DNA from: Girardia tigrina
Lineage: Eukaryota
Direction of reading: 5' to 3'
Assembly (NCBI GenBank): GCA_001938485.1
Contig: MQRK01230279.1
Coordinates: forward strand, 144,700-208,699
DNA: 64,000 nucleotides
How positions within the stretch are numbered: position 1 is the first letter of the stretch; each line of letters starts with the position of its first letter. Shown here piece by piece: positions 11,866-20,399 of this stretch. The notes below the pieces were generated by a model that did not search any database, was not told the DNA's origin, and saw only the letters and a list, made by a program, of their open reading frames with translations. The translations under genes were made by a program, and so were the position numbers.

Positions 11866-12889
11866 ATAATAATCAAGCTCTATTTTAAGCAAATTATGAG
11901 ATAAATTTAGTATGAAACTTGAATATTAATTTTTTTCGTTTCTTATCGAATGATTTTAAAACATTTTAATCCTCTATTTTAAAAATGTGATTATACATAC
12001 GGTGAATTTATAACTAATTTTTCAATCTTATATATTTGGTGATATTTTAGTAATAAATACCCAATACCTCTTGGTTTATGTTCTGATCTCATTTGTAAAT
12101 ATACTTGTAATCGATAACACCACATGTGTTTGACTTATTTTATATCATATCTGTATAAGTTTTCGCGTTGTGATCGCTTTTGACCCTTACTTGAGCCTAA
12201 TTTAAATTAAAATATTAAATAAATAAAATTAAGTACAATTAAATTAAATAAGTAAAAGAAATTAAAAAATTAAATACAATATTAAATTAAAAGTAAATAA
12301 AACAATTAAATTAAAATATTAATTAAATAAAATCATTAAATTAAAATAAAGAAATTAACAAGTAAAAATAAATAAATAAATCAAATAAAAAAATATATAT
12401 TTATATAAAAATTGTGATTAAACCATTACTTTCATTTGGTTTCGTGATGGTATTTTGTAGATTGTGGATTTATTTTCTAAATCAATCAATATTATTTGTA
12501 TTATCAATTTTCAAATTATTGTCAATGAATAGTAATCACCATGTTTGAATTAACCAATTAAGGTAATTAGGTATGTGTGTGTGTGTAATTACATGGTTGC
12601 GTATGAGTGTGTTTAAAAAAAATAAATGTGTTATTAACAATTACAAAAAATAAAACAATGAACAATTTTGAAAATTTGTTTAAATGTATCAATTTAATCA
12701 AGGTTGTGTAGGTGAATATTGTCACAAATTTCAAAAACTAAATAAAATTTGACGAGTTTTCTTTTAATTTGATTGCGTGTTATTTTGACAATGATAATCA
12801 AATGGAATTATAAATCAAATTTAAAAAGAATCAATTTAATGCAAATAAATTTGTGGGGAATTGAAATTTGGTGAATATATACTATTGAA

Positions 12890-13327
12890 ATGCCGAATGA
12901 TAAATTTACTTATCATGCCAATAAGCATATCAATTTCAAATTAAATCGTGAAAATGGAGATTTGGATAACAATGTTAACAATAAAACTTCTTTTACGAAC
13001 CAGTTTTATGGAAAAAATGAAAATATTTTCGGATATAAAAATTTGCGAATAAATTTATGGTTTTCTACGTATCGATTGAATCTATATTTCAATATATCGT
13101 TTGACAAGAAACTGGAAAATGATTATATAAAAGCTGATGATTTTGAAAAGTCTCTTCTCGCTAACATTCCCTATGTGTATCGTAATATTGATCTATACAG
13201 AGAAGCATTGGAAAACGAGAATTTCAAATATTTCGGAAACTTAATTGATGCTTATAAATTTGATGATAAATCGTTTGAAATTTATTACGTTTGTGGAACT
13301 GAAATGGAACGTATACATTGTCAATTA
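12890..13327 (+). CDS. HAT1: Histone acetyltransferase type B catalytic subunit (HAT1), first coding exon (Hat1 N-terminal domain); downstream exons not found
   Basis: INFKL, FTNQFYGKNENIFGYKNLRINLWF, KADDFE, ENFKYFGNLIDAY, FEIY...ERIHCQL align with HAT1 (YTHQLFGDDETAFGYKGLKI, EADDVE, DFKPFGTLLHTY, EYHERLQ). Similarity stops at a phase-0 GTTTGT donor at 13328. Confidence 0.85.
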
Positions 13328-15118
13328 GTTTGTGTGATATTGAGAACTATTCTTAATTTGATTCTTGAGCACAAACTAAATACTTCCATAACTTGCTAAA
13401 GATAATCTAAAATCAATATTGACATCTTCTCTAAATCAATTTTTTTCTCACGATTCTGTTGCTTATTTAATTTTAAAACCAATTTATGACAGAAAACAAG
13501 TGTTGTTTCATTTATTTAATCCTGATCATTTGTTGCACCTGTGGATGAATCAATAACTCACGGATCAGAAAAATTCAGAAAAAGAATTGTCAATAATAAA
13601 AACCAAAAAACCCTCCGCTGAGATGCAAAATTAAGGATCAAAGAGCACAGATCATTAGACAATTTGAGAAATATTGCTTAAATTAATTTAAATTTTAAAA
13701 CAAACAGAAGAAATAATTTTCCGTTTTCTTGCAATGAATTTTTAAATTATTAGGTTAGAGTGATGTTTAATCTCTTAACAATAAGATAAATTGATTTAAA
13801 AATGAAAACTCACATTGAACTTCTCTGCTAATGTTTATTTTGATAAGAACGAAATTTCACATAAGTACACAATTAGTGCTACAAACGTATAATCTCAATG
13901 GAATCACTGAATATGTAAAAATGTCATTATAGTAAGCCTCCCATTTCTTTCAATGGTATTGAGCCTAAGGCTCTTTAGAGGGTTCACCCAAACTAAAGTC
14001 CTTAAGGGTCCCCGATACACCTCCTACTGGGTCAGTGGCCTTCCGCCTCTGAGCAGTCGGTTTGCCAGTTATAAACGACCAGCCATGGAACTTGGTATCA
14101 TGGCCATACATACCTTTGGCTGTTACGGTAGATGCGTAACAGCCACGAAATGGGCACTTGAATCCTTTCCTATGCTGCCAGTGAAACCTGGGTACGCTGT
14201 CGAATGCCTTTTCAAGGTCGATAAAGATAACAAAAACATTTATATTCCGGTATCTGGCCTCTTCTTGTATCTTTCGTGTGATACCTATTGCTTGCGCTGT
14301 GCTTCCTTTTGGTCTGAAAACCAAAATTGCCAGTCGTCCAGTTTCCTTTCAAGATGTGGCATTAATCTATTTGCAATGATTCGGCTATGATCTTTCCTCC
14401 TACATCAAATAGGAATATTCTTCTATAATTATTTAGTTCCGTCTTGGACCCCTTCCTTTGTATAGGATCACGACCTTCGCCGTTTTCCAAGCCTCCGGGA
14501 ATTCTGCTCTTCCCTCCAATATGTCCACGAAACATTGAAGGATCTTTTCAGTTAACTGGAGACCGCCCCACTTATATAGCTCTGATACCGTTGTTTCCAG
14601 CAGCTGTACCGTTCTTTAGTTGCCCAATAGCGGTACTTACTTCTTCTATGTCCGGTGAGTAATCGATGTCTAGTGTTTGGCTCTGTTCGATATCTGCGAT
14701 ATAATCTCTTTCGCTCTTCTTGAATAGATGTGAGAAGTGCTCTGCATCACTTCGTCCTTCACACTGCTCTGCACAGTACATAGAGAGGATTCCTTTGTTT
14801 CACTATTGCAGATGACTCTGAGTTCCGTGTATAACTCTGAAGTCTTGCCCGTACATTCTCTATGAGAATACCTTCTATCTCATGTCCGATTGTTTCAATC
14901 CTCTCTCTTTTCCACTTCCTCAGATGCCGCAAGGTGTTCAATCTTGAAGCCTTCCATATTGAATATGTCCTTTCACATCTATTCTGAATGTATTCCTTCC
15001 TCTGTTTCCATTTCTCCTGCAGTTGTGGTTTCAGTTCTTCTAGGTGCCCGTGTATCCACCTTTGATTGAGCGGGATTTTCTTCTTTCGGTATCTTTTTGT
15101 GGTCTTTAAGATGACCTC

Positions 15119-15995
15119 TGTAGCGTATTATTTGCCTTCCTTACACTAGTCGAAAATATCAATTTTCTAAACGTCTAAATTATCATTTCATCATAATTAT
15201 TTATTATTTCACCATTAGTATTTTTATTTTATTTCTAATCCATTTCTTAAGAAATAATTTTTTTATTATTTTCAATATTTTCATTATTTGTCATTTTTAT
15301 TTTTATTTTATTTTATTTATCTAATTATTTATAACAATTATTATTTATAACAACCTAATTATTTATGACAATTATTCCATGGATAATTAAAAGTATCCTT
15401 GGAATAATATTAAAATTCAAATCAAAATTAAAAAATCAATTAATGAAATAATATTCATTATTATATTTTGACGACGGCCTTTAAGCGCTCGACAACCGAC
15501 GAAAATATATAAAACTTCTGGTTATCCGACAAGGAAAACAAATAACCGATACAACAAAAAATAAACCGTTATTTCTCATCAAACCAAAACATTGAAACCA
15601 AATAGACGAAGATCTTATCCAAAACAAGATTAAATATTATCTGGATTTAGTAGAAACTACTATCTAAAATCAGACGAAGATCTTATCCGAAACAAGATTA
15701 AATATCATCTGAATTTAGTCGAAACTACTATCTAAAATCAGACGAAATTTTTATCCGTGACTAGACGGAATTAAAGTAACCTTATTTATTATTATTGATA
15801 TCTATCTACTGACCTATTTCCCACTACTGTGATCCCAGATACTTCTTATTGTCTCCTTGATCTTTCCGTTGAAGTTTGTTATCTTCTAATATAATATTAT
15901 AATAAATCTAATTGTTATCATTATAAATTTAAACCAAGAGATTGTTATTAGGTTCGATTGAAGAGCACTTTGTTTTCCAATCGAGTTTCATAACA
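15119..15995. mobile_element. Solo LTR (877 bp) inserted in the RTE ORF
   Basis: ACCTC|TGTAGC ... ATAACA|ACCTC: TG..CA ends and 5-bp TSD. Removing it restores the RTE frame WDDLEEVILKTT. Confidence 0.88.
15604..15757. repeat. 68-bp tandem repeat (about 2.3 units) inside the solo LTR
   Basis: AGACGAAGATCTTATCC... recurs at 15604 and 15672, with a partial unit at 15740. Confidence 0.9.
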
Positions 15996-16990
15996 ACCTC
16001 TTCCAAGTCGTCCCAAATCTCGACATTCGGACAAGCCTGCCCTACGTCACTACTGATGACCACTTTGTTGTTCTGCAAGGAGAACCTGTCAATTTTCCCT
16101 TTACATTTCTTCTTTCTATCGTTTGCCAACTTGAGTATCTTATGTTGTTGGCGATCCATATCGTTAACACGACTAAATCGTGGTCTGAGCCACAGTCAAA
16201 GTTTGGATAACATTTGACGTTACTTAATCTGTTGCATCTGCTCCTTTGCGACAGGAATAAATCCAATAATAACCTTTTCTTCGTTTCTGGGTGTCTCTAG
16301 CTAGTTCGTTGCGCCAACTTGTGTTTGTAGAAGGTGTTCTCTACTCGTAAGTTGCACGCGTCGGTCAGATCTATAAATAAACCTCCGTTTTCTGATGTTA
16401 CTGTTGAACTAGTGTAACACTCAACTGTTTTACCATTTTCCCCCGTACGATTAAGTCGACAGTTGAAGTCGCCTCCAACTATCAATTCGAATTTTCTCTT
16501 CTCAGCTTCAGTCGTCGCCCTTTCGACATGTTCCTGCAATGATGCAAAGAACTCCTCCTTTTCCTCACTTGAATATCCGCTGTCAGTCGGAACGTATACC
16601 TCTACCAATGTGATCGACCTTTGGGGTATATTCATAGAATATTTTGATGTTACCATCATGTCTACGCCTCTTTCTCTTGTGCCACTCGTACTGCCACTAT
16701 GATGGATCCTCCACTCCCGAAAGAGCTAATATCGGCTCCAATCAAGTGTGTCTCTGTGAGTATGCACATATCGATTTTATGTTTTTCAAAGACATTGGTG
16801 ATGTTAAGTATCTTTTCGTCGGTCAAGCCTCTAACATTCCATATTCCAATCCTCAGTCCACTGCAAGTGGAATTCTTAACGAGGGATCCCCCTTTCGGGA
16901 TCTTAATGACTTCGGGTCCTGCCAGACCCCTAGTTTGAGTTTTGAAAGCTGTGTACTAGCGAAAGACAGAGTTGCTAGCCCCGTCGATCC

Positions 16991-17105
16991 GTCCACTCAT
17001 TTAGTCTCGATCAAGGGGACCCCCTCTTCTATTTCTAGAAAGGGGAAGAGACCCTCTTTCTAGTTCCAAGGATACACCACGGGGAGGCGAGCGACTTTAT
17101 ATCCA
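16991..17105 (-). ncRNA. HDV-like self-cleaving ribozyme at the 5' end of the RTE element
   Basis: Minus strand: P1 GGATAT/GTATCC; P2 GTCGCTC/GAGTGGAC; P3 GCC/GGT; L3 TCCCCGT; P1.1 CC/GG; P4 region with CTAGAAAG/CTTTCTAG hairpin; J4/2 CTAAAT. It starts about 10 nt inside the element's TSD. Confidence 0.75.
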
Positions 17106-17124
17106 GACTTTATATCATTATAGT

Positions 17125-18278
17125 GCACCTCAACTCCTGTCGAGTATTAAGCCTGAGGCTTTATAGGAGGCCTGGGACGCTGATGGTTCTCAACAAGCAC
17201 TAACCCAATGTTGGGGTCGAGCATGCTTTAGTTCCGNNNNNNNNNNNNNNNNNNNNNNNNNNNNNNNNNNNNNNNNNNNNNNNNNNNNNNNNNNNNNNNN
17301 NNNNNNNNNNNNNNNNNNNNNNNNNNNNNNNNNNNNNNNNNNNNNNNNNNNNNNNNNNNNNNNNNNNNNNNNNNNNNNNNNNNNNNNNNNNNNNNNNNNN
17401 NNNNNNNNNNNNNNNNNNNNNNNNNNNNNNNNNNNNNNNNNNNNNNNNNNNNNNNNNNNNNNNNNNNNNNNNNNNNNNNNNNNNNNNNNNNNNNNNNNNN
17501 NNNNNNNNNNNNNNNNNNNNNNNNNNNNNNNNNNNNNNNNNNNNNNNNNNNNNNNNNNNNNNNNNNNNNNNNNNNNNNNNNNNNNNNNNNNNNNNNNNNN
17601 NNNNNNNNNNNNNNNNNNNNNNNNNNNNNNNNNNNNNNNNNNNNNNNNNNNNNNNNNNNNNNNNNNNNNNNNNNNNNNNNNNNNNNNNNNNNNNNNNNNN
17701 NNNNNNNNNNNNNNNNNNNNNNNNNNNNNNNNNNNNNNNNNNNNNNNNNNNNNNNNNNNNNNNNNNNNNNNNNNNNNNNNNNNNNNNNNNNNNNNNNNNN
17801 NNNNNNNNNNNNNNNNNNNNNNNNNNNNNNNNNNNNNNNNNNNNNNNNNNNNNNNNNNNNNNNNNNNNNNNNNNNNNNNNNNNNNNNNNNNNNNNNNNNN
17901 NNNNNNNNNNNNNNNNNNNNNNNNNNNNNNNNNNNNNNNNNNNNNNNNNNNNNNNNNNNNNNNNNNNNNNNNNNNNNNNNNNNNNNNNNNNNNNNNNNNN
18001 NNNNNNNNNNNNNNNNNNNNNNNNNNNNNNNNNNNNNNNNNNNNNNNNNNNNNNNNNNNNNNNNNNNNNNNNNNNNNNNNNNNNNNNNNNNNNNNNNNNN
18101 NNNNNNNNNNNNNNNNNNNNNNNNNNNNNNNNNNNNNNNNNNNNNNNNNNNNNNNNNNNCATCTTCTGGGAGCTGAAGCGGGATGCTTACTGTGGATTCC
18201 CTGTGGTCCCGCTTGAGATGTCTATTTAGCTCCTTTTGTTCGGCAAACTCCTTAAAGCAATCTTTTATCGTACATTGA
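17125..18278 (-). mobile_element. Second, 5'-truncated RTE copy in tandem (zinc-finger region and 3' end; middle is an N-gap)
   Basis: 18160-18275 encodes CTIKDCFKEFAEQKELNRHLKRDH (homologous to CHLENCNKGFAEQKGLNRHIREDH at ~51140). 3' stem-loop AAGCC-TCA-GGCTT at 17162-17148. Third TCATTATAGT at 18279-18288. Continuity across the gap is inferred. Confidence 0.75.
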
Positions 18279-20399
18279 TCATTATAGTACCAGCTTTTAC
18301 ACTTCTTTGGAAAGTTTTTAGAAATTAGAAATATGATTGCAGCGTGCGGTGTTTCAGACTACAGAGACAGTCTCTTGAAGACAGCCCCCATCGATAATTA
18401 CGATTATGGTTGATCGGTAAACAAGACCTCTCGTTCTTATTAATGTTATGCACAAAAAAATCCATTTCCGATAATTTATGTGAATTTCTCAAAATGTGCT
18501 TAAAATCATCGAAAGCTTAATGAATTGAAGAGTTGATCCCGATTCTATTTAAATTTTTCTTTTAATTTCGATTTCCATGTTTTAAATAAAAAAAAACAAA
18601 GCCGAGACGAACTGGAACAAGCTTTATTATCAAAAAATTCAAAAGAAGGAAAAAACGTTCTTCTTTTTTTTTTATTGAAACAAATTATTTTTTAGTGTAA
18701 ATAATTTTTAATTTATTTTAATATATTAAATTGGCGTGTATAAATACTTATTTAAAAATTATTAAATGTTTTTATTATTTTTAATTTTATAAAAGGGAAC
18801 CCTACAAGGATAAAAGGCTTTATTACTCGTGTTTAGTTTCAAATTTTGTTAAAAACTGTTGTAAGTATTGAAAACAGAACTCATTGTTCAATCAGAAAAT
18901 GAACAAAGAAGAGAAAAACAATATACTTTTGAAAGATAATTCAGAAGGATGTTTTTCTTCACTGATCTAGAAAAAGATTTAAAAACAATACATGGTTATA
19001 ATACGACCAAATATTGCTTAAAAGTGTCTTATTTTGAATTGTTTAAAAATGCTAAGTCTAAAAAGGATATTAAGATATTAAAACTCAAAATATGTTTAGT
19101 AATAGATATTTTACACATTTAGTATTCCTTTAGTACACCTTTAACATTCCCTTCTGATAAAGTTTATATATATATATATAAATATAATGGATGCGAAAAT
19201 ACATGTACTGGTGACACTACCAGTAATCTCTGGAAAGGAATTCAAGATCATGGTTGAAAGAGGCTTAAATATATTACTGAATATAAGAAAAATGTATATT
19301 GATATTAGATTATACGTAAGAATTTTAAAGATTACAGGAAGATAATGCTGTGGAGAGCATTGTTAATTACTATAATTTATCCTAAAATAAATGTTCAAAC
19401 TACAGTCTAAACCAGCTTACTGGGAATTGTTTTGTTATTATCGTTCATGAAACCGATAAGACAATCGTTAATTTGTATATATAGTCAAAAATCGTTTATC
19501 AACCAAAAATACAGTAAAATTTTACTCCAAATATAAACAGATTTTACAACAATAAAATTAAAATTGAGATTTTTAAAATTTTTATGATTCTTATTCCGAT
19601 TTGTATTTTTGAACATTTTATTATGGTTTTATGTAAGTCTTTATGATGACCTCAATATTAATATTCAGAAACAACATATCTGAAGAAAAAATAGTGTAAT
19701 ACTTTTGAATTCTCTTCTTTCGAAGTCGATGGACAATAAGATAATGATAAAAGTAAAAATTTAGTAAAATTAAAATAGTGTGAAAAAATATTTTTGTTGA
19801 GAGTAAGAATAAAAAATATAAAAAGAAATTATTTATTGTCAGGTAAAATAAAAATTGTTTACCTTTTTACGAAAATAAATATAAAGTATACATAAATATT
19901 CAAAGTAAAATTTAACCAATGTATAAATAATTTAAATAGAACAAGAAGAAATTTATATTGAAAGAATAAACAAATATTTAAAATAATAAATAGAGTTAAA
20001 AATAGATATAAAGAAAGTTATATAAATGAAGAGAAACAGAAGAAAAGACATAAAAAAATATTTTAAAAAGAAGGGGGTTCAAAAAATTTATATTTAAAGT
20101 TTGACTTTATTTATTGACCTTAAAAGTCGAAGGTTATTTTATTGATCAAGAATCTAATGAATTTGATCAACATAATTAATTAGATCTCCTGTATAGATTA
20201 ATTAATTTAGATCGAGATTTATAAAAGATTGATCGTAGAAAGTCACTCACACATTGAATTAAACCGAATCTTAATCTGGGTCATTAAATTTGACGGAAAT
20301 AAGTGTTCAATTGATTAAATATATTGTGGAGTTTTTAGTGTGTTTGTAAAATTAGACAGAGAAAACAATTATTTTCTTTAAAATATATTTTAATATTTA

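What the first reader, a model, noticed from the sequence alone, without database searches (positions are those of the whole stretch)
16991..17124. HDV-like ribozyme marks the 5' end of an RTE retrotransposon and overlaps its start codon
Seen: on the minus strand the element begins TSD(ACTATAATGA)-TATAAAGTCT-GGATATAAAGTCGCTC GCC TCCCCGT GGT GTATCCT T GG ... CTAAAT GAGTGGAC. This gives the nested double pseudoknot (P1, P2, P3, P1.1, a P4 hairpin and a catalytic-C-like CTAA). The ATG at 17000-16998, at the J4/2-P2 junction, is in frame with the APE endonuclease (one intervening TAG). The first 11 nt (GATATAAAGTC) are duplicated at the junction. Known: HDV-like ribozymes process 5' ends of R2, L1Tc and some RTE elements. 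Inferred: self-cleavage defines the transcript 5' end and may help cap-independent translation. Caveats: the G1 wobble position is T here, there is one extra nt before P1.1, and J4/2 is long.
Basis: partly seen in the sequence, partly recalled or inferred. Interest (0 to 1): 0.85.

Follow-up and report, generated by a model that had tools for sequence, protein, structure and literature searches.

The report
Ribozyme-headed retrotransposon lacking an AUG start
The 5' end of this decayed jumping-gene copy folds like a known self-cutting RNA that likely frees the element's transcript, but the AUG inside it is followed by a stop codon fixed across the family, so the protein likely starts from a non-AUG codon further on.

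Summary
The ribozyme is real at family level and of a known kind. The claim that it overlaps the start codon is not supported.

In 29 of 39 related copies the match begins at window 17104, one base inside the predicted cleavage site. Eight protein-coding subfamilies in this genome keep the HDV-type double pseudoknot while its sequence changes (87.9% of cells paired, 0 of 500 shuffles as high). The window copy is decayed: four core changes, an insertion and half of the RT deleted.

The AUG at 17000 opens only 14 codons. Codon 15 is TAG or TAA in 44 of 47 family copies, so the stop is fixed, not decay. Sister families read this AUG in other frames or lack it. Yet the endonuclease codons upstream of the first in-frame Met are under purifying selection, so six of eight subfamilies must start without an in-frame AUG. 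The best candidate is a CUG/UUG at 16856, behind two covarying hairpins.

HDV-like ribozymes on RTE elements and skipped stops at RTE 5' ends are both in print. New details are the hairpin leader, the candidate start and an insertion hotspot in a GIY-YIG repeat. No cleavage or translation was measured.

The parts
16991..17105 (-). HDV-like ribozyme, decayed copy. P1 17105-17099 with 17075-17069; P2 17095-17089 with 16998-16991 (one bulge); P3 17088-17086 with 17078-17076; L3 17085-17079; P1.1 partners 17068-17067; P4 17063-17006; C75 equivalent 17004. Copy changes: T at 17105 (family G), T at 17068 (G), G at 17008 (T), A at 17005 (G).
16956..17000 (-). 14-codon upstream ORF from the AUG at the J4/2-P2 junction to a stop that is TAG or TAA in 44 of 47 family-A copies with sequence there; in frame with the long ORF
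16965..16985 (-). Hairpin 1: 6-7 bp stem with a conserved 7-nt loop (CYWGCAA); also seen in 9 of 28 short non-coding relatives (7 of 5600 shuffles)
16914..16929 (-). Hairpin 2; its compensatory change in families B and J alters two codons, so structure outranks protein here
16944..16946 (-). Candidate start X: codon after a near-invariant GCT, 14 nt before hairpin 2; ATG in subfamily A4 (5 of 5), TTC/TTT/AGC/ACT/ACA/CTC elsewhere
16854..16856 (-). Candidate start Y (preferred): CTG five codons before the endonuclease W-N motif; the commonest codon is CTG or TTG with a purine at -3 in 8 of 8 subfamilies; Met at this place in 7 of 40 relatives
13934..17105 (-). RTE-like element, dead copy: endonuclease 16856-15935 (frameshifted), ~800-bp unrelated AT-rich insertion 15929-15126, start of RT to 14187, deletion of about residues 585-1081 of the intact relative P0001, last zinc finger and 3' end
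17106..17114 (-). Junction insert; with two bases of the target duplication it repeats the element's first 11 bases
17115..17124 (-). Target-site duplication, 5' copy
13924..13933 (-). Target-site duplication, 3' copy, directly after the family's 3' terminus
17125..17236 (-). 3' tail of a short non-autonomous relative (80-83% like the ribozyme-headed short elements in L167 and L177), head-to-tail with the element
18160..18288 (-). Third copy of the target 10-mer (18288-18279), followed directly by a 5'-truncated family-B element (94-96% to full-length B copies) running into an assembly gap

Best explanation
This is a decayed copy of an RTE-like retrotransposon family whose first ~115 bases carry HDV-type pairings and likely cut the element's RNA free at base 1, while its protein likely starts at a near-cognate CUG/UUG downstream rather than at the AUG inside the ribozyme. 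Shown: the conserved fold, the sharp 5' boundary, the fixed stop after the AUG, and purifying selection on endonuclease codons that lie upstream of any usable AUG. Inferred: the element is transcribed by read-through from neighbours (other elements in tandem, a GIY-YIG repeat, host genes). The ribozyme would cut just before G1, leaving an uncapped RNA. Reverse transcriptase would copy to that free end, often adding untemplated bases or re-priming, which would explain the T-rich and duplicated junctions. Ribosomes would enter on the structured leader and begin at the CUG/UUG five codons before the endonuclease W-N motif (window 16856). The confidence given is for the whole chain. Separately: ribozyme defines the family's 5' end about 0.9; the ribozyme AUG is not the ORF's own start about 0.85; site Y is the start about 0.45.
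For: 5' boundary: 29 of 39 non-self matches begin at 17104; over 108 junctions position 1 is G in 78% and position -1 is G in 13% and T in 65%. Fold: 87.9% of 224 cells paired against 82.4 +/- 1.2 shuffled (0 of 500) and 36-51% when slid; P2 has a different sequence in each family and stays complementary; P3-L3 pattern 501 matches against 21 control; descriptor gave 0 strict hits in 200 x 2365 nt and 10 x 62,856 nt of random sequence. Start codon: stop fixed; first in-frame ATG lies 24 codons inside the endonuclease in A1 and A2 and 63 in B; intact public relatives P0001, P0017 and P0025 are called from that internal Met; codons W to W+21 have pS 0.39-1.02 against pN 0.04-0.34, and amino-acid-level constraint is visible from W-5 between families, where site Y lies. 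CTG+TTG make up 31-43% of Leu codons in the ORFs. The related finger-bearing proteins P0003 and P0062 have Met at this place. Code is standard: P0001 has 43 Gln and no stop in 1145 residues.
Against: No cleavage, RACE or translation data; public runs were contigs only and showed no molecule starts. The frame is also open from site X to the endonuclease in 8 of 8 subfamilies while the other frames hold 1-3 stops, and the only indel there is 3 nt, which favours an earlier start. Leu at site Y may be needed for the fold (9 of 40 relatives have Leu there), and only three or four lineages are independent. Subfamilies A4 and D do have in-frame AUGs upstream. One of the covariation measures was not above shuffles (pairs changed on both sides: 203 of 500), rows are related, and D, K and J rows are imperfectly aligned. 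Low synonymous change in the leader could partly reflect recombination between families. Single-strand folding z-scores are not significant (-1.24, 0.68; pseudoknots not modelled).
Confidence: 0.45

Rival explanations
1. Termination-reinitiation: the AUG at the ribozyme's 3' edge starts a short upstream ORF, and ribosomes that stop there restart without an AUG at site X, held in place by hairpin 2, as L1 ORF2 restarts after ORF1. This is the surviving form of the first reader's idea.
For: In A the upstream ORF ends four codons before site X; in B two short ORFs end at or four codons before it. Site X is ATG in A4 and lies 14 nt before hairpin 2, the spacing reported to favour initiation (PMC5666671, passage). 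L1 ORF2 translation is independent of its AUG but needs an upstream ORF (PMC4091050, passage). Frame open from X onward in 8 of 8 subfamilies.
Against: K has no AUG-started ORF ending near X, D's junction ORF is two codons and J has no stop there. The codon at X is not near-cognate in most subfamilies. Between families pN is about equal to pS from X to W-6.
Confidence: 0.27
2. The ribozyme AUG is the true start and the stop at codon 15 is read through, giving one fused protein.
For: AUG present in 51 of 53 A copies and in frame. Skipped stop codons at RTE 5' ends are mentioned in PMC2887409 (passage).
Against: The stop switches between TAG and TAA with T or G after it, not a leaky context (recalled rule, not tested). 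The same junction AUG is out of frame in B and D. Spacer indels are non-triplet. Initiation there would need P2 unwound.
Confidence: 0.08
3. The fold now serves mainly as a stable 5' module or protein-binding site, with the ends made by an internal promoter or by other processing, and cleavage is dispensable.
For: For R2, fold stability protects templates apart from cleavage (PMC12203849, passage). J4/2 is 2-3 nt longer than in HDV (HDV layout recalled). No activity was measured.
Against: The catalytic C and the following purines are kept across all families while helices turn over. Homology stops exactly at the predicted scissile site.
Confidence: 0.1
4. Only the AUG-bearing subfamilies (A4, D) make protein and move the others in trans.
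For: A4 and D carry in-frame AUGs upstream of the endonuclease.
Against: AUG-less subfamilies show purifying selection, intact 1145-residue ORFs, and family B is young (the 25 best copies 97-100% identical to the query).
Confidence: 0.05

Closest known systems
HDV-like ribozymes of RTE and other non-LTR retrotransposons (Ruminski et al. 2011; full text not held, seen only through PMC5786205 and PMC6765202 passages)
   Same: Nested double pseudoknot at the exact 5' end of an APE-RT element; proposed release from co-transcripts and help in translation; short bipartite derivatives that keep the 5' and 3' ends.
   Different: J4/2 is 2-3 nt longer in A, B and K than the recalled HDV layout. The element has three C-terminal C2H2 fingers and a fixed 3' end without microsatellite. 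I could not check whether this family is among those already reported.
R2 ribozymes (PMC3774820, PMC12203849, PMC11331408; passages)
   Same: Cleavage at the 5' junction, variable junctions with non-templated bases, non-canonical translation, structured RNA running into the ORF.
   Different: R2 has a restriction-like endonuclease (recalled) and targets 28S rDNA. Here the endonuclease is APE and the preferred target is a GIY-YIG repeat.
RTE clade (PMC2887409, passages)
   Same: Single ORF with APE and RT, no RNase H domain found, short 5' UTR, target duplication; 'skipped stop codons or frameshifts' at the 5' end of some members.
   Different: No SSR tail; zinc fingers; longer ORF (at least 1145 residues).
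Conserved RTE 5'-UTR domain / Ceph-domain 3' half (PMC5786205, passages and supplement part 15)
   Same: A GCAAC stem-loop followed by AAAACTC, downstream of the 5' end and kept in non-coding derivatives.
   Different: Resemblance by eye only; none of five exact 9-10-mers from this family was found in the supplement and the Fig. S4 alignment was not readable.
L1 ORF2 and SART1 termination-reinitiation (PMC4091050, PMC5972666; passages)
   Same: A downstream APE-RT ORF reached after an upstream stop; AUG dispensable in L1.
   Different: There the upstream ORF is a full ORF1 protein. Here it is at most 19 codons and not conserved in frame.

Membership tests
HDV-like ribozyme | Nested double pseudoknot P1, P2, P3, P1.1 (P4) in HDV order | tested here: met
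   Family level. The window copy has one P1.1 pair and one P4 pair broken.
HDV-like ribozyme | Catalytic C in J4/2 followed by N-A-R, and U-C-C/U at the start of L3 | tested here: met
   C in 52 of 53 A copies and invariant in 14 of 14 aligned rows
HDV-like ribozyme | Purine at +1 (G-U wobble or pair) at the cleavage site | tested here: met
   G in 78% and A in 13% of 108 junctions; not met in the window copy (T)
HDV-like ribozyme | Rfam gathering score for RF00094 or RF02682 | tested here: not met
   21.4 of 50 bits and 13.1 of 44 bits; only the decayed window copy was scanned
HDV-like ribozyme | Mg2+- and C75-dependent self-cleavage | not testable with these tools
   no assay; public runs were contigs only
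RTE clade | Single ORF with APE and RT, no ORF1, no RNase H | tested here: met
   P0001: PF14529 and PF00078 only; elements 3.5-3.9 kb with the ORF starting within 250 nt of the 5' end
RTE clade | RT groups with named RTE references (RTE-1, BovB, JAM1) | tested here: inconclusive
   No named references were available. A quick unrooted tree puts it in a 23-row zinc-finger lineage (SH-aLRT 96) beside unnamed relatives, one with a sub-threshold DUF6451 hit. RT and thumb motifs look RTE-like from recall.
RTE clade | Very short 3' UTR ending in simple repeats | tested here: not met
   Fixed terminus without microsatellite or poly(A) in the 26 ends examined
RTE clade | Target-site duplication; bipartite non-autonomous derivatives | tested here: met

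The most novel reading that the evidence does not exclude
A zinc-finger lineage of RTE-like elements translates an uncapped, ribozyme-cut RNA through a defined hairpin leader that sets a non-AUG start, and gets transcribed by inserting at one site in the GIY-YIG coding sequence of a Penelope-like repeat, much as R2 uses rDNA. Eight natural subfamilies, with and without AUGs, would then be a ready panel for how such RNAs initiate.
Probability: 0.25. Interest if true: 0.62.

Novelty: new member of a known kind. Interest (0 to 1): 0.33.

Why it matters
How ribozyme-cut, uncapped retrotransposon RNAs begin translation is still loosely understood. This family narrows it to two testable codons and two covarying hairpins, with natural variants as controls. 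It also shows that gene callers truncate these ORFs at an internal Met. The ribozyme itself is expected for RTE elements, and the window copy is dead.

Tried and rejected

Stop as decay: rejected.

All comparisons therefore come from this one genome.

Public runs: 18 runs from 8 studies share under 0.3 of the words. Four were laid; contigs only, no starts or ends, and no change at the stop among the 40 of 61 difference rows shown. Not used as evidence.

A covariance model of the leader found only the window copy in the window and nothing significant in 25 short-element loci (best E 0.42). Hairpin 1 in those elements rests on a motif count.

One search used a structure placed on the wrong columns and was replaced. 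Tandem-repeat hits to the loose pattern (L158-L163) were dropped as false positives. That pattern demanded TG after J4/2, so it cannot show conservation of a start codon there.

A pseudoknot between the hairpin-1 loop and the bases at the stop fits only family A; set aside. No 2A-like motif was seen in the leader (by eye).

Host not identified: the HAT1 homolog search gave no hit. No earlier scan findings matched.

Literature: searches found no paper on this leader, a non-AUG RTE start or RTE targeting of Penelope-like repeats. Ruminski 2011, Webb 2009, Alisch 2006, Eickbush 2010 and a further review were not held, and their text or supplements may already cover these points.

Full report
OBSERVATION. 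The 10-bp duplication flanks the element at 17124-17115 and 13933-13924, the second directly after the family's 3' terminus. One chance match of this AT-rich 10-mer in 64 kb is unremarkable; the positions are what count. Rfam has no hit at gathering score, but both HDV models give weak hits at this spot (E 0.68 and 7.3).

THE FAMILY. A search of the own genome (1.43 Gb, 255,254 contigs) scored 40 of 1036 candidates. Of 39 non-self matches 29 begin at 17104, and the base before is usually G. Over 108 distinct 5' junctions of four families, position 1 is G in 78%, and position -1 is T in 65% and G in 13%. Homology therefore ends at the predicted scissile site. Copies were chosen for having a 5' region, but the sharp edge was not selected for. 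Five of 108 junctions, the window's included, repeat 8 or more of the first bases upstream (control 10 of 1262). I read this and the T excess as reverse transcriptase reaching a free RNA end and adding bases or re-priming; that is inference, by analogy with R2 junctions (PMC3774820, passages).

THE FOLD. Pattern searches gave 501 against 21 control matches for the P3-L3 core and 1436 against 55 for P4-J4/2 (some double-counted, some tandem repeats). They revealed eight protein-coding subfamilies (A1-A4, B, D, K, J) and short non-coding elements with the same head and an RTE-type tail. P2 differs completely between families and stays complementary; P3 has a double change in the short G elements. 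On 14 aligned rows 87.9% of 224 cells pair, against 82.4 +/- 1.2 in shuffles (0 of 500) and 36-51% in slid controls. The count of pairs changed on both sides was not above shuffles (203 of 500), rows are related and D, K, J are imperfectly aligned. My strict descriptor passed 11 of 30 A copies and 11 of 25 B copies and no random sequence; the relaxed form gave 1 random hit in 10 x 62,856 nt. The window copy passed neither form. It has T for G1, T for G38, a broken P4 pair and A for G74, where 39, 46, 43 and 48 of 53 A copies have the standard state. Its ORF is frameshifted, interrupted by about 800 bp and lacks about 500 residues including most of the RT. It is dead as an element.

THE AUG. 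The ATG at 17000 is present in 51 of 53 A copies, but codon 15 is TAG in 25, TAA in 19 and something else in 3 of the 47 with sequence. The stop is a family trait that changes between stop codons. In B the junction AUG runs in another frame for 19 codons, and a second AUG opens 12 in-frame codons ending in TAA. In D it opens two codons out of frame, K has CUG there, and J has none. The distance from the hairpin-1 loop to the conserved GCT is 22, 23, 23, 24 and 20 nt in A, B, D, K and J, so frame is not kept upstream; from GCT to the endonuclease Trp it is 108 or 105 nt. A changed genetic code does not explain the stop.

THE ORF STARTS WITHOUT AUG. The first in-frame ATG lies 24 codons past the endonuclease W-N motif in A1 and A2, 63 in B, 19 in K and 5 in J; in A3 none lies before the motif in the two copies long enough to tell. 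A4 (5 of 5 copies) and D (7 of 10, with TAG as the next codon in 4 of the 10 copies) have one upstream. Public intact relatives of 1145 residues are called from the internal Met. The 22 codons from W onward are clearly translated: pS 0.39-1.02 against pN 0.04-0.34 in eight family pairs. Twenty of 150 representative relatives are also called from internal starts, though some may be partial.

THE LEADER. RNAalifold finds two hairpins after the ribozyme: 94.4% of 144 cells paired, six pairs changed on both sides, 3 of 500 shuffles as high. Synonymous change is suppressed (pS 0-0.21) over the 18 codons from GCT, so this stretch is constrained as nucleotides. Hairpin 1 is also in 9 of 28 short non-coding elements, so it probably serves mobilisation or RNA handling rather than translation alone. 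It may correspond to the conserved RTE 5'-UTR domain of PMC5786205 (passages and supplement part 15); that is a resemblance only.

WHERE IT STARTS. Site Y (16856): the commonest codon is CTG or TTG with a purine at -3 in all eight subfamilies, while neighbouring synonymous sites are saturated between families; amino-acid constraint begins there; 7 of 40 relatives have Met there. With 31-43% of Leu codons being CTG or TTG and three or four independent lineages, chance is roughly 2-6% by my estimate. Site X (16946): ATG in A4, 14 nt before hairpin 2 (spacing cited in PMC5666671), open frame downstream in all eight, short ORFs ending beside it in A and B, as in L1 reinitiation (PMC4091050). I put Y at about 0.45, reinitiation at X at 0.27, readthrough at 0.08.

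WHY A RIBOZYME HERE. Of 117 5' junctions, 29 lie at one site of a high-copy repeat, in the same orientation, with different junction sequences in A, B, D and J. The empty site occurs exactly 666 times and sits in a GIY-YIG motif (PF01541, E 0.0016, below the curated cut-off); the Penelope-like label is from recall. Of 26 3' ends, 8 are followed by that target and 4 by another ribozyme head. In the window the target 10-mer occurs three times, around a truncated family-B copy, a short-element tail and this element. Such placements would give read-through transcripts that a 5' ribozyme can cut; transcription itself was not shown.

COMPARISON. [quoted passage not shown] Skipped stop codons at RTE 5' ends are noted in PMC2887409 (passages). 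Ruminski 2011 was not held, so what it says on start codons is unseen. Other papers seen as passages only: PMC4908430, PMC5972666, PMC12203849, PMC13725137, PMC11331408. The element works like an RTE; formal membership is open, since no named reference could be used and it has zinc fingers and no repeat tail. A quick tree of 63 rows (from 66 given; 3 dropped for short coverage) places it in a finger-bearing lineage.

VERDICT. A real, known kind of ribozyme on a dead copy; the start-codon overlap is not supported as stated. The residual interest is the AUG-less ORF with its hairpin leader and the target hotspot. New member of a known kind; interest 0.33.

Noticed in passing
window 13924-18288: The same 10-bp target was hit repeatedly: three copies of the duplication frame a truncated family-B element, a short-element tail and this element head-to-tail. 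The 923-base assembly gap roughly fits the missing B 3' part plus the head of the short element, which may hold a second ribozyme.
   Followed up: partly
L031, L048, L063, L106, L134, L183, L187 5' flanks; L205:314-598: Insertion hotspot at the Tyr codon of a Y-I-G motif in a high-copy GIY-YIG (Penelope-like) repeat, used by several families in the same orientation (29 of 117 junctions); none of 8 family-K junctions.
   Followed up: partly
L142-L157, L164-L177: Abundant short (about 400-500 nt) non-coding elements with an HDV-like head, in some with a hairpin inserted in J1/2, hairpin 1 and an RTE-type tail.
   Followed up: partly
L138, L175, L192 leaders: Part of family D has ATG followed at once by TAG where other copies have ATG-AAG, at the position of the A/B stop; family K has ATG-TGA out of frame in its leader.
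   Followed up: no
window 12875-13399 (+): HAT1 N-terminal domain exon (PF10394, E 6.9e-26), very divergent; the elements lie antisense about 0.5 kb downstream, possibly in an intron.
   Followed up: no
window 15126-15929: AT-rich insertion inside the element with short internal repeats; no match among the loci fetched.
   Followed up: no
P0001-P0004, P0056-P0106: A widespread unnamed lineage of RTE-like proteins with two to four C-terminal C2H2 fingers (23 rows, SH-aLRT 96 in a quick tree).
   Followed up: partly
L158-L163: GC-rich tandem repeat with a CCAAT-containing unit of about 60 nt that mimics the P4-J4/2 pattern.
   Followed up: no
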